Part shown: piece after piece, positions 11,380-33,094 of the stretch
Layout of the letters: each line of letters opens with the position of its first letter
Position numbering within the stretch: the first letter of the stretch is position 1
Source: Chthoniobacterales bacterium
GTDB taxonomy: Bacteria; Verrucomicrobiota; Verrucomicrobiia; Chthoniobacterales; UBA10450
Direction: 5' to 3'
NCBI GenBank assembly: GCA_035274845.1
Contig: DATENU010000012.1
Coordinates: 44,908-108,907 of the forward strand
Length of the DNA stretch: 64,000 nt
Notes under the pieces: generated by a model
What the model was told of the DNA's origin: nothing
What the model saw: only the letters and a program-made list of their open reading frames with translations
Databases searched by the model: none
Program-made: the position numbers and the translations under genes

Positions 11380-12435
11380 CTACTCGTCCTTAACCGCCGC
11401 GTGAATCTCTTCCAGGATTTCACGCAAGCCGTAACGGAGTTTCCATTCGGGATAATGTTCCTGAAATTTGCGAACATCGCTGATCCACCAAATGTGATCG
11501 CCGATCCGGTTGTCTTCCTCGTACTTCCAGGTCAGGCGTTTGCCGCTGATCTCTTCGCAGAGCGTGATCGCCTCCAGCATTGAACAGTTGCTGTGGCGGC
11601 TGCCGCCGATGTTATAGACTTCGCCGGCCCGCGGGGCGCGAATGAAAGCGGCGAAGGCGTCCACTAGATCGGCGCTGTGAATGTTGTCGCGCACCTGCTT
11701 CCCGCCGTAACCGAAAACGCGATAAGGCCGTCCGGTCACGGTGCAAATCATGAGATAGGAAAGAAATCCGTGCAGCTCGGTGCCGGCGTGGGCCGGGCCG
11801 GTCAGGCAGCCGCCGCGGAATGAAACCGTGGGCATCCCAAAATAGCGGCCGTATTCCTGGACGAGGATGTCCGCGGCCGCTTTCGAGGCGCCAAAGAGCG
11901 AGTGCTTTGTGTAATCGATGCTCATCGTCTCGGAAATCCCGGGCTCGTATTCGTGGCCCGGCTCGATTTCCCAGCGCGAGGTCAGCTCGCGCAACGGCAA
12001 CCGATTCGGTGTATCGCCGTAGACCTTGTTCGTCGAAGTGAAAACAAACGGTGTTTCGGGGCAAACTTCGCGCGCGGCCTCGAGCAGATTCAGGGTGCCG
12101 TTCGCGTTCACGCCAAAGTCCGTCTGCGGATCGCGCGCCGCCCAATCGTGCGATGGCTGCGCCGCGGTATGCACCACCCCGGCAATCTCGCCGCGATGCT
12201 GCCGGAAAAGATCCCGCACGCCATTCGCATCGCGAATATCAATATCGTGATGCTGATAATCGCGCACCGTCTCCACGAGCCGGTCCCGGGTTTTCTGGGT
12301 GGAAGCTTCGGCGCCGAAGAAGCGGCTGCGCATGTCGTTATCGATGCCGATCACGCGATAACCCTCGGCCGCGAAATGCTTGACCGTCTCCGAGCCGATC
12401 AAACCGGCGGAACCAGTCACGATGATCTTGCGCAT
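11380..12435 (-). CDS. NAD-dependent epimerase/dehydratase (CDP-paratose 2-epimerase-like SDR)
   Basis: 351-aa ORF; N-terminal [10 protein letters not shown] Rossmann motif and YGASKAAAD catalytic motif. Confidence 0.85.
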
Positions 12436-26312: not shown

Positions 26313-28121
26313 GTGCCGCGCCGGTTTGAAACCGTGAAAAGCGTCCTTTTCGTTTGTACTGGAAATATCTGCCGAAGCCCGATGGCGGAGGGCCTTTTTC
26401 GCCGTCTGCTCGGCAATCGCAAGGACATCGAAATCGCGTCCGCCGGTGTGCACGCAGTCCGGGGGCAACCGCCGAGTTTGCATGCCATTCACGTCTGCGA
26501 GCAGGAAGGGGTCGACATCCGCGGATTGCGAAGCCAGCCGCTTACCGCCGCGATGGTCGACCGCGCCACCCACATCTTCGCGATGACGGGCGCCCATCTC
26601 GACACGATCCACACCTACTTTCCCCAGGCGATCGACAAAACGTTTCTCCTTCGCGAATTCGAGGAACCCTGCGTGTCGCTCGATGTGCCGGACCCGATCG
26701 GGTGCAGCCGGGACGTTTACAACCACTGCGCCGGCACAATCAAAAACGCTTTACCGACCGTGCTCGCGTTCGTAGAACAAAGCGAACTCGCAGTCCCTGC
26801 GAAATCGCGCGGCGGCGGAACCTCATCTTTCACCATGGCAGATCCCGACATCTCATCCGGCTCCGGAAAAACATCCACTTCGACCGGAGGCCCGTTGAGC
26901 AAGGTCGATCCCGAAATTTTCGCCGCCGTCCAGGCCGAAGAGAATCGGCAACGCGAAAATATCGAGCTGATCGCGTCCGAAAATTTCACCAGCCGCGCCG
27001 TGATGGAAGCGCAGGGCAGCGTTCTCACCAACAAATACGCGGAAGGTTACCCGAAGAAGCGCTGGTATGGCGGTTGTGAAAATGTCGATACCGTCGAGCA
27101 GCTCGCGATCGACCGCGCGAAGCAGCTCTTCGGTTGCGAGCACGTCAACGTCCAGCCGCACTCCGGCGCCCAGGCGAACATGGCCGTTTACTTCTCGATG
27201 CTGAAGCCCGGCGACAAAATTCTTGCGATGAATCTCGCCCATGGCGGCCATCTCACCCACGGCCATCCCGCGAATTTCTCCGGCAAATTCTACGAAGTCT
27301 CGCAATACGGTGTCAGCGCCGAGACCGAGCAGATCGATTACGACGCGTTGCAAAAACAGGCCGAGGAGTTTCGTCCCGCCATGATCACGGCCGGCGCCTC
27401 AGCCTACCCGCGCATCATCGATTTCCCGCGGATGCGCCAGATCGCCGATTCCGTCGGCGCGCTTTTGTTCATCGACATGGCGCACATCTCCGGCCTCGTC
27501 GCCGGCGGCCAGCATCCCAGCCCGATCCCGCACGCCCAGTTCGTCACCACCACCACGCACAAAAGCCTGCGCGGCCCGCGCGGCGGCATCACGATGTGTA
27601 CCGCCGAACACGCGAAAGCGATTGACGGCACTGTCTTCCCCGGCATTCAGGGCGGCCCGCTCATGCACGTCATCGCGGCGAAAGCCGTCTGCTTCCACGA
27701 AGCCCTCCAGCCCGGCTTCCGCGATTACCAGCGCCAGGTCGTGGTCAACGCCAAAGCCCTCGCCGCTGGATTAACCAAACACGGTTACCGGATCACCTCC
27801 GGCGGCACCGACAACCACCTCATGCTGGTCGATCTGCGCCCGAAAGATTTGAACGGCAAAGTCGCCCAGGAAGTCCTCGACCGCGCCGGTATCACCGTGA
27901 ACAAGAACGGCATCCCCTTTGACACCTACCCCATCTTCAAACCCGGCGGCATCCGCATCGGCACACCCGCCGTCACCACGCGCGGCATGAAAGAAGAAGA
28001 TATGCTGGAAATCGCCGACCTCATCAACGACGCCCTCCAAGCCCGCGACGACCAACCCGCACTCGACCAAATCCGCGGAAAGGTGCGCGAACTGACGCGA
28101 AGATTTCCGCTACCGAGCTAA
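26313..28121 (+). CDS. glyA: Single ORF joining an LMW phosphotyrosine/arginine phosphatase domain (aa 1 to about 155) and serine hydroxymethyltransferase (aa about 185 to 602) through a G/S/T-rich linker
   Basis: [16 protein letters not shown] (CX5R P-loop) at the N-terminus. SHMT core [10 protein letters not shown]...[10 protein letters not shown] (PLP-lysine) follows. No stop between domains, same frame; internal ATG at 26835. Confidence 0.8.
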
Positions 28122-28133
28122 GCCGCGACTGCA

Positions 28134-28337
28134 ATGAAAACGAAAACGGTCGGTAAGCGTATGGCGAAAACCCCTGAGGAGTTTCACTCGCTCGGCGCGC
28201 AGCTTGATCTCGAAGCAAGAGCCTTGGATCCGAATCGCCCAACTGGTTTCATCGTAAAATTCCGCACTTGGGAGGATCACGAGCGCTGGGAGAAAGATCG
28301 GTTGGTCGAACAGGCACGCCGAGTCCGCGCCGGATGA
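28134..28337 (+). CDS. Small hypothetical protein (67 aa), first gene of a two-gene cassette
   Basis: Starts 12 bp after the serine hydroxymethyltransferase ORF stop; its TGA overlaps the ATG of the next gene (ATGA). Confidence 0.4.
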   Translation: MKTKTVGKRMAKTPEEFHSLGAQLDLEARALDPNRPTGFIVKFRTWEDHERWEKDRLVEQARRVRAG

Positions 28338-28792
28338 ACGAACAGGCGCCTTTAGTCCGGGTCTGTTCGCTATTAAACAAGCACGACGCGAGATACCTCG
28401 TGGTCGGAGCACGCGCGTGCTGGTTGCACGGCTATGTCAGAGCAACGTTGGACGTAGACATCCTCGTTCCTGAGGATTTGCAGAATCACAAGCGCATCAT
28501 CGCCGCGCTTTCAGAATTAAGGGACGGCTTCGCTGCCGAGCTGAGCCCTCAGGATTTCGTTGAGAACGTCGTGGTAAAAATCGCCGACGAAGTTGAAGTC
28601 GATATCAGCACGCGCGCTTGGAAAGTCACGTTCGATGAAGCGGAGAAATCCGGGCTCAATCGGACAATTGAGGGAGTGCGCGTTCCGTATGTTGATTTAC
28701 AGACCCTGATCAAGAGCAAAACTACTCACCGCGAACAGGACAAGGTGGATGTCGAGCGTTTGCGCGAGATTCAACGAGACAGCGATCGGTGA
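28334..28792 (+). CDS. Minimal nucleotidyltransferase-fold protein (pol-beta superfamily-like, hG[GA]...DxD)
   Basis: 152 aa from ATG 28334; LVVGARACWLHGYVRATLDVDILV resembles the NTase active-site strand-turn; translationally coupled to the upstream small ORF. Confidence 0.5.
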   Translation: MNEQAPLVRVCSLLNKHDARYLVVGARACWLHGYVRATLDVDILVPEDLQNHKRIIAALSELRDGFAAELSPQDFVENVVVKIADEVEVDISTRAWKVTFDEAEKSGLNRTIEGVRVPYVDLQTLIKSKTTHREQDKVDVERLREIQRDSDR

Positions 28793-28847
28793 CTTTCAGA
28801 TCGCCCTCGGCGGGCAATGACTGCGAGATGATATGGCCCATTCCCAC

Positions 28848-29031
28848 CGAAACTTGATGGCATCCGAATCGGCCGACCCGCCGTCACGACGCGCGACATG
28901 AAAGAAGAAGAAATGCTCGAAATCGCCGACCTCATCAACGACGCCCTCACCCACCGCGACGACCAACGCGCCCTCGACCAAATCCGCGCCAAAGTCCGCG
29001 AACTCACGCCGCGGTTTCCGCTTCCGTCGTA
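28848..29031 (+). pseudogene. Diverged duplicate of the 3' end (last ~56 codons) of the serine hydroxymethyltransferase ORF (att-like remnant)
   Basis: 28861-29031 aligns with 27960-28121 with several mismatches (e.g. gaaatcgccgacctcatcaacgacgccctc identical); encodes ...[44 protein letters not shown]. Confidence 0.8.
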
Positions 29032-29207
29032 AGTTGTTTACCGGCCCCCGCTCGCTTCACCGCTCCCGCATCCTTTCCGTACCCACCTAAGCCTCTTTGC
29101 CCTTGTCGCGCGCAAACGCTTTTGATAAACAAAACTGTGTTTTCCCTTTTGCGCGCATCAGCCGCTCCCCAGAATTGAGTTAAGACCGCTCCAGTAACAC
29201 GATACCA

Positions 29208-29951
29208 ATGCGGCGAATCTCGCTTATCCTTCTCTTACTTTTAGCCGTCCTGCTTGGACTATTCGTCGCACTCAGATGGTTCCCTGACACAGTTCGCAAT
29301 GCGGCTCCGACGTTCAGTCTTTTGACCAATGTATTCGCATTCAGCTCTGTGGTCTTCGCGATCGCACTGTTGTCGTGGATTATGCGAACATTAGTGGAAT
29401 CCGACCCGGATCCGTTCCTCCTTAATCTCACCTTTTTCGCTTTTGCCGGCCAATCTATCAGAACTATCGAGTTCATTTACAATGGTCATACCAACGGTTT
29501 TCTCCTCTTTCTTGGGTTGATCGCCGTCGGGATCGTAGGGTGTCAGGCACTCATCCTAAGAGCACATATGCACACAACCAAGACGCACTATAAAGCGCTC
29601 CTTGCAGAGTACAAGAAAACCAGTTGCTCTGATCATGAGATCGAGCATTGGGCAAGCGTTGTATTACAAATCACGGGAACGGATTTTTCGCCTGGCAATT
29701 ATTTCGGCTTTAAGGGGCTCGAGAAAGTCTTCCCGTCGGGCCCCAGAGCGAAGAGCAGAATGGACGCATTATCAATCCTACCTGAAACAGATTTTCGAAA
29801 GGCTGGCCCAAGTGGGAGTGGTTTGACCGCTGAATTACTGGTTGTTCCCGCTGAAGACCGAGTAACACTTTGGTGTCTCTATCGTCGGGCATGCGCAGCA
29901 GCATGGATCGTTTTCATGATCGCCATACTGATCTCACAAAAGAAATCGTAA
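29208..29951 (+). CDS. Hypothetical membrane protein in a lower-GC islet
   Basis: 247-aa ORF with several hydrophobic helices; local composition is markedly AT-richer than flanks; stop overlaps the next start (TAATG). Confidence 0.5.
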   Translation: MRRISLILLLLLAVLLGLFVALRWFPDTVRNAAPTFSLLTNVFAFSSVVFAIALLSWIMRTLVESDPDPFLLNLTFFAFAGQSIRTIEFIYNGHTNGFLLFLGLIAVGIVGCQALILRAHMHTTKTHYKALLAEYKKTSCSDHEIEHWASVVLQITGTDFSPGNYFGFKGLEKVFPSGPRAKSRMDALSILPETDFRKAGPSGSGLTAELLVVPAEDRVTLWCLYRRACAAAWIVFMIAILISQKKS

Positions 29952-30751
29952 TGCTACGCCATAACAGAAGCGTTTACGGTCACAGACCAGAGGGCTTTTC
30001 CTCCCTGTTTACCCCTTCCGACAGTGTCGACACGGCCTCTAGCGAAAGGCGAATCTCACCGAAAGGGAATATTGGCCCAATCATAAAGTTGCGTCATGTG
30101 AGGGTATGGCTAGTTCAATCAATAAGCATCACGAGAATAGTAGCTACGCTTCTATTTGCCGGACTGGCCTTTAAGAACATTTCGCATGTGTTGTTGTCAT
30201 TGCTTTTTGGGACCGCGGTAGTTACTGATCTAATTGACGGGTATCTGGCACGAAAACTCCAAGTCCAGACGCAGTTGGGTCAGGTGATAGATTTAGTAGC
30301 CGATAAATCGTTGACGACTGTTTCTCTGCTATATGCGGCCGCCTGTGGAGTCGATATTCTCCCGATCGCCATAATCGCGATGCGCGATATCATCATGATC
30401 GGCATGCGACTGGTCATAGTCCAAGGTACTCAACTTCTTCCCACCAATCGATTGTTTGGCGGAGCCATGGCACTTCTCCTTTGGGCCAATACCCTGGTTC
30501 TGATATGTGCGCCGATAGAAGGCGGTTTCTTGCAGATCGCAAGCGGAGTATACTGGGCGTGCGCGATAATTTTCGCATGGAACCTTCTGTCGCGCCTTTA
30601 CGTTAGCGTTCCGGCGATAAGGACAGCCTCCAACCTCAATTTGTTATCAGAGATAAGCGCAAAACGCGGTCGCCCGAAGCGGTTTTCTACCTCTGAATTA
30701 TCAATTTCAAAGTTTCGACGTCATTTGGGTCAGGCTGGTGACACCAGGTGA
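29951..30751 (+). CDS. CDP-alcohol phosphatidyltransferase family protein
   Basis: DLIDGYLARKLQVQTQLGQVIDLVADK matches D-x2-DG-x2-AR...G-x3-D-x3-D; multiple TM helices. Start could alternatively be GTG 30098. Confidence 0.65.
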   Translation: MLRHNRSVYGHRPEGFSSLFTPSDSVDTASSERRISPKGNIGPIIKLRHVRVWLVQSISITRIVATLLFAGLAFKNISHVLLSLLFGTAVVTDLIDGYLARKLQVQTQLGQVIDLVADKSLTTVSLLYAAACGVDILPIAIIAMRDIIMIGMRLVIVQGTQLLPTNRLFGGAMALLLWANTLVLICAPIEGGFLQIASGVYWACAIIFAWNLLSRLYVSVPAIRTASNLNLLSEISAKRGRPKRFSTSELSISKFRRHLGQAGDTR

Positions 30752-30907
30752 CCTTTCGGCTCTCGCAAGGCTGTTTCCTTCCACCACTCGGCGATTCTAG
30801 GCACAGCACTGAGGCTGGCGATGATAATCGCGCCGTTGGCGCTCATGAGATCGGAGGAAGCCGAGCGCACGCGGATAGGACGCGTGCGCGATAGCTTGGT
30901 TCCCAAG

Positions 30908-33094
30908 TTATCGGGATGTGGTCGCCGACGTTTCGGCGGCAGGAGGCGCGGGCTTCCTGGACGCGTTACCGTTTCCGGACGAACCCGCGAATTGGCGGAT
31001 GAAGTCCTCCAGCGGTTTGGAACCGGCGGGGTTTTCCTGGATGTTGATGCCGGCTTTTTCGCTCAGGATGAGGCTGAGCAACGTTTCGAGGACGCTGCCG
31101 CCACTTTGACCTTCGCCATCCGTGGCGCCGCCGCTGTTGCTGATGAAGAGACGGCTCGGGACGAGCGGTTGGACGCTTTGCGAGAAGCGGTCGGCGAAGA
31201 CATTGAGCGCATACAGGCGCGGGTCGCGGTAGGCGCCGACCTTTTGCAAGGTGACCGCGGCTTCGGCGAGACCGACCTGGGCGATCCGTGAGGATTCGCC
31301 TTTGCCGATTAGCTCTTTCGAGCGCGCTTCGCCTTCGGCGAGCGTGACCTGTTTCTTGGCCAGCTGCTCGGCCTCGGCGAACTGGGCTTCACCACGATTC
31401 GCGGCGATCTCGACGGCGATCGCGCTTTGGGTCAGCTCGGTTTGGCGTTCGGCTTTCGCTTTCGCTTCGTTGAGCGCGACCTGTTGTTGCGCGGCTTCCT
31501 CCTGCTTTGCGTAGGTGGCGCGTTGTTCGTCGGCCAAACGGCGCATGCGGAGCTGGTCGAACAACGTTTCGATCGGGTCGGCCTGGCCGGCGGCGATCTC
31601 GCGCGATTCGGGCCGGCCGATCAGGACGGCGACGACGTTGATGTCGTATTTTTGGAAACGCGCGCCCAACTCTTCGGTGGCGTGCCGTTGGATTTCTTCG
31701 CGTTTCGTCAACAGATCCAGCATGTGCGAGGTCTGCGCGACGTCGCGGAAGTAGGCGGTCAGGATGGGATCGAGCGTCTGGGTGATGAGGCGCTTCACGT
31801 CACCGAACCGTTGCACGACGGACGGCGCTTTCTGGTAGTCGATGTGGAGGACGAGCGAGAGCGGCAGGCGCGGCTCGTAACCATCGGCCGTGATCAGGTC
31901 GATACTGGTCAGGTCTTCGTCGTAATGGTGCGCTTCGGTCTGGCCGCTGATCCAGCGCAGGACGAAGTTGATCGTCGGGACGAGCTCGACTTTCACCGCA
32001 TAGGGGTTCAACGCGTACTTGCCAGGCGTGAGCGCGGAACGCCAGACACCACGCTGGCCGGGCTCGACCTGTTCGCCGTAACGGAACGATTCGCCGGTGG
32101 TATCGTCGCCGGCGGCGCCGTGATACGACACGACCACGCCGACGTAACCGATCGGGATCAGCGTCTTGGCCTTGATCTCGACGGTGCCGAACCAGCGGTT
32201 GATGAAGAACGTGCCGTCCGTCAACACCTGGAGCTGTTTACCGCGTTTGCCTCCGAGGGCGAGGAACGCCTCCGGATCCTGGAAGTAATTGTGATCCTTT
32301 CCGGGAATCGCTTTCACTTCCGGCGCGATGATTTCGCCGGAGCCGATGGTCGGACCGTCCTGGATGCTGACGACGCCGATCGTGTCCGTGCTCGGATTGA
32401 AGTCGGGCGAGGCCGCGGCCAGTGACGGCGGCGAGCCGGCTTCAGTCGCGCTCGTGTCGCCAAGATGCGCCGTGAATCGGCTCTGCCCGGCGCCGATGAC
32501 GACCGGATCGAAGGCGCGCAACGACGCGAGCTGCGCTTTCCACGACTCATAACGGTCCGCCGATTCCTTCACCGGCCCGGAGAAGACGCGGTCTTCGGTG
32601 ATGACCACGAACAGCGCCAGGTTAATGGCGTAGACGCCTTCGCGCAGAATGCCGCGCTGCCGGCCGCGTTGGCCCTGCGCTTCGAGGAATGCCATCGCGT
32701 CCTGGAAATGGTTGGAGTCGACGGTGCGGCCGAGCGTTTGGATCGGCTCGAGCGGCACGCCGTCGCGGGCATAGACGTAAGCCATCTTGCCTTCGGCGAC
32801 GACAACGAGCGGTTCCTTATGAATGCGGTATTGCCACGGATACAATCCGAAGTGAATACCGCCGCGCAGGAACCTGGCCTGGTAACCGGCCTCGCCGTTG
32901 CGCGCGATGATCTGTCCTTCGCGCAACGAACCGCGGCTGCTCCAGATTTTTTCGATGATACCGACCTGCGTGTGCGGGATGTAAACAATCCCGAGCAAAC
33001 GCGGCAGGCAGATCATCAGAATCAGGACTGCAATACCCCCCACCCCATACACCCACGGGGCTTCAGGAAGTGTGAGAGCGATTAGGTTGTTCAT
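30908..33094 (-). CDS. SPFH/band-7 (flotillin-like) membrane protein
   Basis: 728-aa ORF; N-terminal TM, SPFH domain, and a long E/A/Q-rich coiled-coil (AEAEQLAKKQVTLAEGEARSKELIGKGE...) typical of flotillins. Confidence 0.75.
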   Translation of the reverse strand: MNNLIALTLPEAPWVYGVGGIAVLILMICLPRLLGIVYIPHTQVGIIEKIWSSRGSLREGQIIARNGEAGYQARFLRGGIHFGLYPWQYRIHKEPLVVVAEGKMAYVYARDGVPLEPIQTLGRTVDSNHFQDAMAFLEAQGQRGRQRGILREGVYAINLALFVVITEDRVFSGPVKESADRYESWKAQLASLRAFDPVVIGAGQSRFTAHLGDTSATEAGSPPSLAAASPDFNPSTDTIGVVSIQDGPTIGSGEIIAPEVKAIPGKDHNYFQDPEAFLALGGKRGKQLQVLTDGTFFINRWFGTVEIKAKTLIPIGYVGVVVSYHGAAGDDTTGESFRYGEQVEPGQRGVWRSALTPGKYALNPYAVKVELVPTINFVLRWISGQTEAHHYDEDLTSIDLITADGYEPRLPLSLVLHIDYQKAPSVVQRFGDVKRLITQTLDPILTAYFRDVAQTSHMLDLLTKREEIQRHATEELGARFQKYDINVVAVLIGRPESREIAAGQADPIETLFDQLRMRRLADEQRATYAKQEEAAQQQVALNEAKAKAERQTELTQSAIAVEIAANRGEAQFAEAEQLAKKQVTLAEGEARSKELIGKGESSRIAQVGLAEAAVTLQKVGAYRDPRLYALNVFADRFSQSVQPLVPSRLFISNSGGATDGEGQSGGSVLETLLSLILSEKAGINIQENPAGSKPLEDFIRQFAGSSGNGNASRKPAPPAAETSATTSR

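What the first reader, a model, noticed from the sequence alone, without database searches (positions are those of the whole stretch)
28122..29031. Mini-island immediately 3' of the serine hydroxymethyltransferase ORF: coupled two-gene cassette flanked by a diverged duplicate of that ORF's last ~170 bp
Directly visible: 12 bp after the serine hydroxymethyltransferase ORF stop a 67-aa ORF begins. Its TGA overlaps the ATG (ATGA) of a 152-aa minimal nucleotidyltransferase-fold ORF. Right after that cassette, 28861-29031 repeats the final ~170 bp of the upstream ORF (27960-28121) with several mismatches, including an in-frame stop. Established knowledge: tyrosine-recombinase integrative elements that target a gene's 3' end regenerate that end and leave a diverged displaced copy at the other border. 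An att-flanked element without an integrase is a CIME-like cis-mobilisable element. The cargo looks like a toxin-antitoxin-like or defence-like NTase pair of unknown function. This is a candidate novel small mobile module and integration hot spot.
Basis: partly seen in the sequence, partly recalled or inferred. Interest (0 to 1): 0.75.

Follow-up and report, generated by a model that had tools for sequence, protein, structure and literature searches.

The report
Toxin-antitoxin pair beside duplicated glyA end
Two small coupled genes just after the serine hydroxymethyltransferase gene look like a MenT-type toxin-antitoxin pair that sits at this spot in many related soil bacteria, and the diverged copy of the gene's end behind them is most likely a recombination scar, not the border of an integrase-driven mobile element.

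Summary
Window 27948-28121, the last 58 codons of an LMW-phosphatase/SHMT fusion gene, recurs at 28859-29032 at 86% identity. It has no net indel and the same TAA stop. Between the copies lie a 67-aa ORF and a 152-aa ORF joined by an ATGA overlap.

The 152-aa protein has a minimal nucleotidyltransferase fold. Its family profile matches the M. tuberculosis toxin MenT1 (E 4e-12), and Foldseek puts MenT1 first. The 67-aa partner is a new two-helix family. The pair fits a MenAT1-like toxin-antitoxin module.

It is not a recent island. In 77 of 80 metagenome loci and 10 of 43 informative Chthoniobacterales species genomes it lies directly after glyA. There are empty sites and decayed copies, and the decayed copies keep only the small gene.

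The duplicate occurs in only a few lineages (window, L085, L086, L005). In L085 the two copies differ almost only synonymously (dN/dS 0.05), so two functional alleles were joined by recombination.

I found no integrase, no conserved att core and no attC. Synonymous-divergence mismatches show that cassette alleles are exchanged between lineages.

The clearly foreign DNA lies just beyond the duplicate: a low-GC two-gene segment at 29.1-30.8 kb.

Verdict: partly supported, of modest interest.

The parts
26313..28121 (+). glyA: one ORF fusing a low-molecular-weight phosphotyrosine phosphatase domain to serine hydroxymethyltransferase
   Evidence: Pfam LMWPc 1.8e-30 and SHMT 2.6e-167. The same fusion occurs in 80 Verrucomicrobiota loci.
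27948..28121 (+). Copy A: the functional last 57 codons plus the stop codon of glyA
   Evidence: Conserved GTPAVTTRG motif is intact.
28134..28337 (+). 67-aa ORF, putative antitoxin; two predicted helices (residues 14-31 and 46-66)
   Evidence: About 900 homologues, all unnamed. The 4-nt ATGA overlap with the next gene is kept in most of 64 distinct loci. No Pfam or PDB sequence match.
28334..28792 (+). 152-aa minimal nucleotidyltransferase (DUF6036 / MenT-AbiEii-like), putative toxin. Family-conserved positions include G25, A28, D40, D42, D90, K129, R133, D136 and D139; T38 aligns with MenT1 T39.
   Evidence: AlphaFold2 pLDDT 86. Foldseek top hit is MenT1, 8an5_B. dN/dS 0.07-0.10.
28793..28858 (.). 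66-nt spacer between the stop of the 152-aa ORF and copy B; origin unclear
   Evidence: Not significantly similar to glyA -246..-175 (p = 0.2).
28859..29032 (+). Copy B: displaced pseudogene fragment of the glyA 3' end (57 codons plus TAA)
   Evidence: 86% identical to copy A. dN/dS against A is 0.27. Shares 6 of A's 14 rare states.
29100..30750 (+). Low-GC (48-50%) two-gene segment absent from all relatives at this site: a 247-aa membrane protein (29208-29951) and a CDP-alcohol phosphatidyltransferase (29870 or 29951-30751)
   Evidence: In L169 and L171 homologues of the 247-aa protein lie in a low-GC stretch a few kb from a tyrosine recombinase gene; in L169 a tRNA gene, which I read by eye as tRNA-Ser, lies upstream.
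30865..30889 (.). Hairpin just downstream of the convergent Band_7 gene (30908-33094, minus strand). It is conserved in relatives and marks the right edge of the variable gap.

Best explanation
The two ORFs form a MenAT1-like toxin-antitoxin module. The 152-aa protein is a minimal nucleotidyltransferase. By homology to MenT1 it would block translation by adding nucleotides to tRNA 3' ends. The translationally coupled 67-aa helical protein encoded just upstream would neutralise it by binding.

The module is a long-standing resident of the 3' flank of the phosphatase-SHMT gene in soil Chthoniobacterales, including Candidatus Udaeobacter, and is probably co-transcribed with that gene. It is inherited mostly vertically. 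It is often lost, and in the decayed copies the toxin gene is the one missing. Its alleles are occasionally swapped between related lineages by ordinary recombination.

The second glyA 3' end (copy B) is a scar of such recombination. DNA carrying one allele of the glyA end was joined next to another allele. One copy stayed attached to the gene and the other was displaced behind the cassette, where it decays. No dedicated integrase is needed. The conserved glyA end itself supplies the homology.

Shown: the anatomy, the fold and family, the synteny, the empty and decayed sites, the mainly synonymous divergence of the copies in L085, and the mismatch between cassette and glyA synonymous divergence.

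Inferred: toxicity, the tRNA target, and the exact recombination route. The route could be homology-facilitated illegitimate recombination or two homologous crossovers that use copies A and B as arms.
For: Fold and family:
- A profile of 47 diverse relatives hits MenT1 (8an4/8an5) at E 4e-12. PMC10435456 identifies those entries and describes MenA1 as a 68-aa antitoxin, encoded upstream of a menT-like gene in most homologues found, with a two-helix structure.
- 34 of the 47 relatives hit DUF6036, 19 hit DUF2204 and 17 hit AbiEii.
- The model has pLDDT 86 and its top Foldseek hit is MenT1.
- Residues equivalent to MenT1 T39, D41 and K137 are present.

Partner gene:
- The small ORF overlaps the nucleotidyltransferase gene by ATGA in most of 64 distinct loci.
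- It is predicted to form two helices.
- A comparable small ORF plus nucleotidyltransferase pair sits on an Azospira IncP plasmid.

Selection and decay:
- The nucleotidyltransferase gene has dN/dS 0.07-0.10.
- All 5 partial copies among species genomes keep the small gene and have lost or broken the nucleotidyltransferase gene.

Residency at glyA:
- 77 of 80 metagenome loci have the order glyA, small ORF, nucleotidyltransferase.
- 10 of 43 informative species genomes have it, in the same order.
- L039 is an empty site and L062 keeps only the small ORF, with about 98% identical glyA sequence alongside.

Scar:
- The duplicate is also present in L085 (245 nt), L086 and L005.
- In L085 the copies have dN/dS 0.05 with dS 0.64, and copy B is followed by the hairpin region that follows glyA in the empty site L007.

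Allele exchange:
- The ratio of nucleotidyltransferase dS to glyA dS has a median of 0.78.
- It is about 0.25-0.28 for some Udaeobacter pairs and 2-4 for the window against its glyA relatives.
- In L131 versus L097 a low-divergence tract runs from about -130 in glyA to the nucleotidyltransferase stop.
Against: - The window protein itself is below threshold for every Pfam, NCBIfam and PADLOC model.
- The small protein shows no detectable similarity to MenA1.
- Structural neighbours also include the antibiotic-modifying enzymes LnuA and ANT(2'')-Ia at similar TM-scores.
- I could not settle the direction of the recombination event: cassette plus copy A imported, or copy B plus downstream DNA imported. 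No breakpoint was resolvable in glyA and no relative is closer than about 90%.
- Copies A and B share rare states within each genome. This could also reflect gene conversion after an old duplication.
- A conserved position next to one housekeeping gene across a whole clade is unusual for a selfish module.
Confidence: 0.6

Rival explanations
1. The cassette plus copy A is a small integrase-less, att-flanked element (CIME-like). A tyrosine recombinase acting in trans inserted it into the glyA 3' end, which regenerated the gene and displaced the original end.
For: - Direct repeats flank the cassette.
- Empty sites exist.
- The L085 copies diverged under purifying selection, as expected if one came with an element.
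- L011 has a 12-nt exact match to glyA -246..-235 at the same place behind the nucleotidyltransferase stop as the L085 junction.
- A distant genome, L075, has a 49-nt repeat of the glyA end flanking a 4-kb insertion.
- One relative, L018, has an integron integrase right after glyA.
Against: - No tyrosine recombinase in the window or in the other loci.
- The cassette was never seen inside an integrase element. The three relatives away from glyA include L160 and L164, which lie among ordinary chromosomal genes.
- The duplicate's 5' edge differs between lineages, and no conserved core follows the nucleotidyltransferase stop in Udaeobacter-type loci.
- Most cassette-bearing loci have no duplicate at all.
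- Cassette and glyA distances are correlated.
Confidence: 0.12
2. The cassette has always been vertical. Copy B arose by a tandem duplication within the genome, followed by deletion. It stays similar to copy A through gene conversion, with no horizontal input.
For: - In the window, A and B share 6 of 14 rare states, against about 1 in control pairs.
- There is a 30-nt identical block within the repeat.
- The cassette is resident across the clade.
Against: - L085 A versus B has dN/dS 0.05 with dS 0.64. A copy free of selection should gather replacements and indels.
- In L085, A and B are not each other's best match. L085_B matches L002 at 87.8%, against 87.3% for A with B.
- Cassette dS is 2-4 times glyA dS for the window.
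Confidence: 0.15
3. The 152-aa protein is not a toxin. It is a small-molecule nucleotidyltransferase, such as a lincosamide or aminoglycoside resistance enzyme, or an enzyme functionally tied to one-carbon metabolism. The small ORF would be a regulator or chaperone.
For: - Foldseek TM-scores to LnuA (0.62) and ANT(2'')-Ia (0.61) equal those to MenT1.
- 22 of 47 relatives hit Pfam Aminoglyc_resit.
- The position beside glyA is stable, and purifying selection is strong.
Against: - The sequence profile is much closer to MenT1 (4e-12) than to LnuA (2e-4).
- The coupled small upstream gene matches the MenAT1 layout.
- In decayed copies the enzyme gene is the one lost and the small gene is kept.
- Distribution is patchy: 10 of 43 species.
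- More distant homologues lie away from glyA and on plasmids.
Confidence: 0.15
4. The duplicate is a metagenome assembly chimera that joins two strain variants.
For: The window comes from a metagenome-assembled contig. One related contig, L165, ends about 20 nt after the nucleotidyltransferase gene.
Against: - The junction between the cassette and copy B is unique sequence, not a shared k-mer.
- The same architecture appears in independent assemblies: L085, L086 and L005.
Confidence: 0.03

Closest known systems
MenAT1 (Rv0078B-Rv0078A) of Mycobacterium tuberculosis; MenT / AbiEii nucleotidyltransferase toxins (PMC10435456, PMC7450476)
   Same: - Minimal nucleotidyltransferase toxin fold with the T-x-D-x-D motif and a C-terminal K...R..D..D motif.
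- Family-profile match at E 4e-12, and the top structural match.
- A protein of about 68 aa, predicted to form two helices, encoded just upstream.
   Different: - The toxin is shorter: 152 aa against a 196-aa PDB chain.
- It falls in the DUF6036 / DUF2204 neighbourhood, not DUF1814.
- The small partner has no detectable sequence similarity to MenA1.
- No activity has been tested.
- It is fixed beside glyA in one bacterial order.
Integrative and cis-mobilisable elements that target the 3' end of a gene (ICE, IME, CIME). This comparison rests on my own knowledge.
   Same: An insertion directly after a conserved gene whose 3' end is regenerated, with a displaced diverged copy at the far border. 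Empty sites exist in relatives.
   Different: - No integrase in cis, and none seen in the related loci.
- No fixed core.
- The duplicate is absent from most carriers.
- The unit is only about 0.9 kb.
- Its history is mostly vertical.
Chromosomal integration hot spots between core genes, and homology-facilitated illegitimate recombination. This comparison rests on my own knowledge.
   Same: - One gap between conserved genes (glyA and Band_7 or zwf) holds different accessory genes in different lineages. These include the cassette, a PDC-S35 TIR-like gene, an integron integrase, an unrelated ORF and a low-GC lipid-gene pair.
- Exchange uses homology in the flanking core gene.
   Different: Here the recombination left a recognisable partial duplicate of the core gene. 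That duplicate could itself serve as a second homology arm.
Toxin-antitoxin cassettes of chromosomal integrons
   Same: A small promoter-less two-gene toxin-antitoxin unit in a variable array. One relative has an integron integrase beside glyA.
   Different: No attC-like RYYYAAC...GTTRRRY pair in 28051-31000 and no intI in the window.

Membership tests
MenT/AbiEii-type nucleotidyltransferase toxin-antitoxin systems (MenAT1-like) | Toxin has the minimal nucleotidyltransferase fold with catalytic carboxylates | tested here: met
   G25, A28, D40, D42 and D90 are conserved in 47 relatives. AlphaFold2 pLDDT 86. Foldseek hits MenT1, TM1012 and LnuA.
MenT/AbiEii-type nucleotidyltransferase toxin-antitoxin systems (MenAT1-like) | Sequence homology to a characterised MenT toxin | tested here: met
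   The family profile hits 8an4/8an5 (MenT1) at E 4e-12 over profile positions 8-148. The identity of those entries is confirmed in PMC10435456.
MenT/AbiEii-type nucleotidyltransferase toxin-antitoxin systems (MenAT1-like) | The window protein itself passes a curated family model (Pfam AbiEii or DUF6036, NCBIfam, PADLOC) | tested here: not met
   No hit up to E = 1 in Pfam, NCBIfam or PADLOC. Among 47 relatives, 34 hit DUF6036 and 17 hit AbiEii.
MenT/AbiEii-type nucleotidyltransferase toxin-antitoxin systems (MenAT1-like) | Small antitoxin gene immediately upstream and co-expressed | tested here: met
   ATGA overlap in the window and a -4 overlap in most of 64 distinct loci.
MenT/AbiEii-type nucleotidyltransferase toxin-antitoxin systems (MenAT1-like) | Antitoxin homologous to MenA1 (or to the COG5340 / AbiEi antitoxins) | tested here: not met
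   A profile of 22 small proteins finds nothing in the PDB apart from an Xis match at E 0.79, and nothing in Pfam. Only the predicted two-helix architecture resembles MenA1.
MenT/AbiEii-type nucleotidyltransferase toxin-antitoxin systems (MenAT1-like) | Growth inhibition by the toxin, rescue by the antitoxin, nucleotide addition to tRNA 3' ends | not testable with these tools
   Indirect evidence only. All 5 decayed copies in species genomes keep the small gene and have lost or broken the nucleotidyltransferase gene.
Integrase-dependent integrative element / CIME | Flanking direct repeats derived from the target gene | tested here: met
   27948-28121 versus 28859-29032 at 86%. Also present in L085, L086 and L005.
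Integrase-dependent integrative element / CIME | A tyrosine or serine recombinase in cis, or a related integrase-bearing element using the same site | tested here: not met
   tblastn with XerD and lambda Int (sequences recalled from memory) at E <= 1 finds nothing in the window or in 166 loci. The only hit is an integron integrase in L018. Distant integrases could be missed, and serine recombinases were not probed.
Integrase-dependent integrative element / CIME | The same crossover core at both borders and in independent insertions | tested here: inconclusive
   The L085 junction is at glyA -245 and L011 has a 12-nt match at the same place. The window repeat starts at about -174 and L086 at about -213. 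Udaeobacter-type loci show no conserved core.
Integrase-dependent integrative element / CIME | Empty target sites in relatives | tested here: met
   L007 has glyA, a 150-nt spacer, then Band_7. L039 is empty while L062 keeps the small ORF, with 98% identical glyA sequence alongside.
Integrase-dependent integrative element / CIME | Excision as a circle | not testable with these tools
   Needs reads or PCR from the source community.
Integron gene cassette | attC site after each cassette and intI/attI nearby | tested here: not met
   No RYYYAAC...GTTRRRY pair 50-150 nt apart in 28051-31000. No intI in the window. Rfam finds nothing relevant.

The most novel reading that the evidence does not exclude
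The unit 'glyA 3' end, toxin-antitoxin pair, second glyA 3' end' is a mobile module that needs no integrase. Its two copies of the end of an essential, highly conserved gene act as portable homology arms.

RecA-type recombination between A and B would loop the cassette out cleanly and restore an intact glyA. A fragment or circle carrying the unit could then insert into the glyA end of any related genome through homologous crossovers, which would recreate the duplicate.

Addiction by the toxin-antitoxin pair would bias surviving recombinants toward keeping the cassette. Copy B would also serve as the left anchor for importing whatever lies downstream of glyA in a donor, which would turn the site into a hot spot.
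Probability: 0.2. Interest if true: 0.6.

Novelty: new variant of a known kind. Interest (0 to 1): 0.36.

Why it matters
The pair adds a large family to the MenT/AbiEii-type nucleotidyltransferase toxins. It has about 1,000 sequences in soil Verrucomicrobiota, including Candidatus Udaeobacter, which I recall as one of the most abundant soil bacteria. Its small partner has no known relatives, which gives a testable new antitoxin.

The locus is also a clean natural example of how a conserved gene end can mediate gain, loss and allele swapping of an accessory cassette without a dedicated recombinase. It shows that a duplicated gene end is not enough to infer an integrase-driven element.

Nothing here overturns current understanding.

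Tried and rejected
- **Integron cassette.** Prompted by the integron integrase beside glyA in L018. Rejected for the window: no attC-like pair, no intI, no relevant Rfam match.
- **Assembly chimera.** Rejected because L085, L086 and L005 show the same architecture independently.
- **Extending copy B across the 66-nt spacer to the L085 junction.** Not significant (p = 0.2), so I do not claim one shared junction for all lineages.
- **Conversion of the functional gene by the pseudogene (B to A).** The terminal dN of the window glyA (0.117) is the highest in the set but not an outlier; L006 has 0.114. Dropped.
- **Locating a recombination breakpoint in the window's glyA** by sliding identity against 11 relatives. 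No resolution, because all are 80-95% identical.
- **Identifying the native copy from nearest neighbours.** No relative is closer than about 90%, and A and B are equally distant from all of them.
- **Sequence link of the small protein to MenA1, Pfam or the PDB.** None.
- **Literature search for glyA as an integration site.** Nothing relevant.
- **Sigma-70 promoter and terminator scans.** At chance level.
Full report
**1. What is in the sequence**

The ORF 26313-28121 encodes a single protein with an N-terminal low-molecular-weight phosphotyrosine phosphatase domain and a complete serine hydroxymethyltransferase.

Twelve nucleotides after its TAA stop, a 67-aa ORF begins (28134-28337). Its TGA overlaps the ATG of a 152-aa ORF (28334-28792) as ATGA.

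After a 66-nt spacer, 28859-29032 repeats the last 57 codons and stop codon of glyA (27948-28121).
- Identity is 86% (blastn E 1e-52).
- There is no net indel.
- Both copies end at the same TAA.

The only in-frame stop inside the repeat is that terminal TAA.

Copy B does carry replacements at conserved SHMT residues (GTPAVTTRG to GRPAVTTRD). It lacks everything upstream, so it is a pseudogene fragment.

The 66-nt spacer is not significantly similar to glyA.

The source is a Chthoniobacterales metagenome-assembled genome, going by the NCBI name attached to a neighbouring protein.

**2. What the two small genes are**

The window proteins themselves hit no Pfam, NCBIfam or PADLOC model. The 152-aa protein nevertheless belongs to a large family.
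- 972 clusters were found in the 90% identity library.
- 2,270 representatives were found at 50% identity.

An alignment of 47 diverse representatives keeps a G-x-x-A...R-x-T-x-D-x-D...D...K-x-x-x-R-x-x-D-x-x-D pattern.
- Its members hit DUF6036 (34 of 47), DUF2204 (19), AbiEii (17) and Aminoglyc_resit (22).
- Its profile hits PDB 8an4/8an5/8rr5 at E 4e-12, TM1012 at 7e-6 and LnuA at 2e-4.

8AN4 and 8AN5 are MenT1 and the MenA1:MenT1 complex of M. tuberculosis. MenT1 adds nucleotides to tRNA acceptor ends. It is blocked by MenA1, a 68-aa protein whose resolved structure is two helices joined by a loop. Most menA1 homologues found lie just upstream of a menT-like gene (PMC10435456).

The AlphaFold2 model of the window protein has mean pLDDT 86 and pTM 0.84. 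Foldseek ranks MenT1 first (8an5_B, E 2e-4), followed by TM1012, LnuA and ANT(2'')-Ia.

The 67-aa protein has about 900 homologues, all unnamed.
- It has no PDB or Pfam sequence match.
- It is predicted to form two helices, at residues 14-31 and 46-66, with pLDDT 73.

The 4-nt overlap with the nucleotidyltransferase gene is kept in most of 64 distinct loci.

The nucleotidyltransferase gene is under strong purifying selection (dN/dS 0.07-0.10).

A 36%-identical homologue on a conjugative IncP plasmid of Azospira is also preceded by an overlapping 75-aa ORF. That ORF is weakly similar to the 67-aa family (hhalign E 0.008).

I therefore read the pair as a MenAT1-like toxin-antitoxin module with a new antitoxin family. 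Toxicity and the tRNA target are inferred, not shown.

**3. Is it a recently inserted mini-island? Comparative evidence**

I took 80 Verrucomicrobiota genome loci with the same phosphatase-SHMT fusion, 80 metagenome loci encoding relatives of the 152-aa protein, and several contigs retrieved by exact protein look-up.

In 77 of the 80 metagenome loci the order is glyA, small ORF, nucleotidyltransferase, with only a few nucleotides between glyA and the small ORF.

The three exceptions are the most distant relatives (63-68% identity). I examined two of them, L160 and L164. Both sit among ordinary chromosomal genes with no integrase.

Among species-representative genomes of the Chthoniobacterales clade with enough downstream sequence:
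- 5 have a complete pair;
- 5 have a partial one;
- 33 have none.

None of 25 more distant Verrucomicrobiota has it.

Empty sites are clear.
- L007 has glyA, a 150-nt spacer with a hairpin region, then the convergent Band_7 gene.
- L039 is empty. L062, whose glyA 3' region is about 98% identical, keeps only the small ORF.

In every partial copy the small gene survives and the nucleotidyltransferase gene is deleted or broken (L005, L011, L015, L059, L062). That order of loss is what a toxin-antitoxin pair predicts.

Pairwise distances of the nucleotidyltransferase gene and glyA are correlated (r about 0.73-0.75). The cassette is therefore an old, mostly vertically inherited, frequently lost resident of this site, not a fresh arrival.

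**4. The duplicate**

Of 77 loci that carry both glyA and the nucleotidyltransferase gene, only the window and L085 have a sizeable second glyA end.

Other traces are:
- L086, whose contig starts inside the cassette, has a degenerate duplicate;
- L005, the closest glyA relative, has a 29-38-nt remnant directly behind an internally deleted small ORF, with the nucleotidyltransferase gene gone;
- L011 has a 12-nt exact match to glyA -246..-235 just after its nucleotidyltransferase remnant, the same place as the L085 junction;
- L001 has a similar motif by eye.

The closest cassette relatives (83-86% identity; L165-L167) have no duplicate. There the nucleotidyltransferase stop is followed at once by the Band_7 hairpin.

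L085 is the most informative locus. Its copy B is 245 nt long, begins 6 nt after the nucleotidyltransferase stop and has an intact frame. It is followed by the same hairpin region that follows glyA in the empty site L007, and then by zwf.

Its two copies differ at 32 of 243 sites, but dN/dS is 0.05 and dS is 0.64. They are also not each other's best match.

A fragment released from selection would not diverge this way. The two copies evolved as working glyA ends in different lineages and were then brought together.

In the window the figure is dN/dS 0.27 with dS 0.42, and copy B shows some damage. Copies A and B share 6 of A's 14 rare states, against about 1 in control pairs. The partner allele was therefore a close relative, or some gene conversion has occurred.

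**5. Mechanism of the rearrangement**

I found no support for a site-specific recombinase.
- tblastn with XerD and lambda Int, recalled from memory, finds nothing in the 64-kb window or in 166 of the 167 loci then held.
- The single hit is an integron integrase immediately downstream of glyA in L018 (TIGR02249, 453 bits).
- The window has no attC-like sites.
- The 5' edge of the duplicate is not fixed: -245 in L085, about -213 in L086 and about -174 in the window.
- Udaeobacter-type loci show no conserved core after the nucleotidyltransferase stop.

There is direct evidence for recombinational exchange of the cassette. The ratio of nucleotidyltransferase dS to glyA dS is about 0.8-0.95 for most close pairs. 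It is about 0.25-0.28 for L131 or L107 against L097-L102, and 2-4 for the window against L088, L001, L002 and L085.

For L131 against L097 the mismatch densities are:
- about 8-11 per 100 nt in the body of glyA;
- about 4-7 per 100 nt from roughly -130 in glyA through the nucleotidyltransferase stop;
- 10.5-13 per 100 nt beyond that.

So a tract made of the glyA end plus the cassette has moved between lineages.

The simplest account is ordinary or homology-facilitated recombination with the conserved glyA end as an arm. When one junction falls behind the cassette and not in the homologous position, a second glyA end is left there.

I could not decide which side was imported in the window. Identity profiles along glyA show no breakpoint at the available divergence.

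**6. Surroundings**

The segment with foreign composition is not the cassette, which has GC 53-56%. It is 29100-30750, with GC 48-50% against about 60% in the flanks.

This segment encodes a 247-aa membrane protein with no Pfam hit and a CDP-alcohol phosphatidyltransferase. The two genes share a TAATG junction. The segment is absent from every related locus at this site.

The 247-aa family is rare, with 26 homologues. In L169 and L171 its homologues lie in a low-GC stretch with further CDP-alcohol phosphatidyltransferase genes, a few kb from a tyrosine recombinase gene. In L169 a tRNA gene that I read by eye as tRNA-Ser lies just upstream.

At the equivalent place L005 carries a TIR-like candidate defence gene (PDC-S35, E 2.7e-70). 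L006 carries an unrelated ORF there.

The gap between glyA and the Band_7 hairpin (30865-30889), or zwf in other lineages, is therefore a genuine hot spot.

**7. Comparison with known systems, and verdict**

The system works like MenAT1 and is homologous to MenT toxins at the family level. The window protein does not pass any curated model, and the antitoxin is unrelated in sequence to MenA1. I therefore call it a new variant of a known kind rather than a member of MenAT1.

It resembles elements that integrate into gene 3' ends only in the flanking repeat and the empty sites. The defining recombinase and fixed core were looked for and not found.

The most novel reading still open is that the two glyA ends act as portable homology arms for integrase-free insertion and clean excision. 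I give it about 0.2.

Overall this is a real, well-defined feature with an ordinary explanation and a modestly interesting twist.

Noticed in passing
window 26313-28121: glyA is fused in one reading frame to a low-molecular-weight phosphotyrosine phosphatase domain. The fusion is shared by all 80 Verrucomicrobiota loci retrieved. In more distant ones (for example L075, 736 aa) a third, RpiB-like segment appears to sit between the two. That last point is by eye and was not scanned.
   Followed up: partly
window 29100-30750: A low-GC (48-50%) two-gene segment unique to this genome at this site. It encodes a 247-aa membrane protein from a rare family (26 homologues, some fused to a VTT/DedA domain) and a CDP-alcohol phosphatidyltransferase, joined by TAATG. 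In L169 and L171 homologues lie a few kb from a tyrosine recombinase gene; in L169 a tRNA gene read by eye as tRNA-Ser lies upstream.
   Followed up: partly
L018:7902-9182: An integron integrase gene (TIGR02249, 453 bits) starts about 100-400 nt after the glyA stop in this Chthoniobacterales genome. The contig ends 200 nt later, so I could not check for a cassette array.
   Followed up: partly
L005:8039-8770: The closest glyA relative carries a TIR-like candidate defence gene (PADLOC PDC-S35 E 2.7e-70; Pfam CAP12-PCTIR_TIR) behind its glyA-end remnant, where the window has the low-GC pair.
   Followed up: partly
L075:8127-8178 and 12224-12272: In a distant Verrucomicrobiota genome a 49-nt, 90% direct repeat of the glyA end flanks a 4-kb insertion. 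The insertion encodes an XRE-type HTH protein and two large proteins with no Pfam hit, and no integrase. This is a second case of a glyA-end duplicate bordering an insertion.
   Followed up: partly
window 28898-29032: Copy B contains a 44-aa ORF (MKEEEMLEIADL...RFPLPS). The same peptide could be read from the L085 copy. There is no evidence that it is expressed.
   Followed up: no
window 30865-30889 and relatives: A GC-rich hairpin just downstream of the convergent Band_7 gene is conserved in L001, L002, L006, L007 and L165-L167. It marks the fixed right edge of the variable gap.
   Followed up: partly
NZ_CP050465.1 1845119-1845595 (Vibrio campbellii, 2-Mb replicon): An unannotated stretch encodes a 26%-identical relative of the 152-aa protein (tblastn E 8e-4). 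I did not check whether it lies in the superintegron.
   Followed up: no
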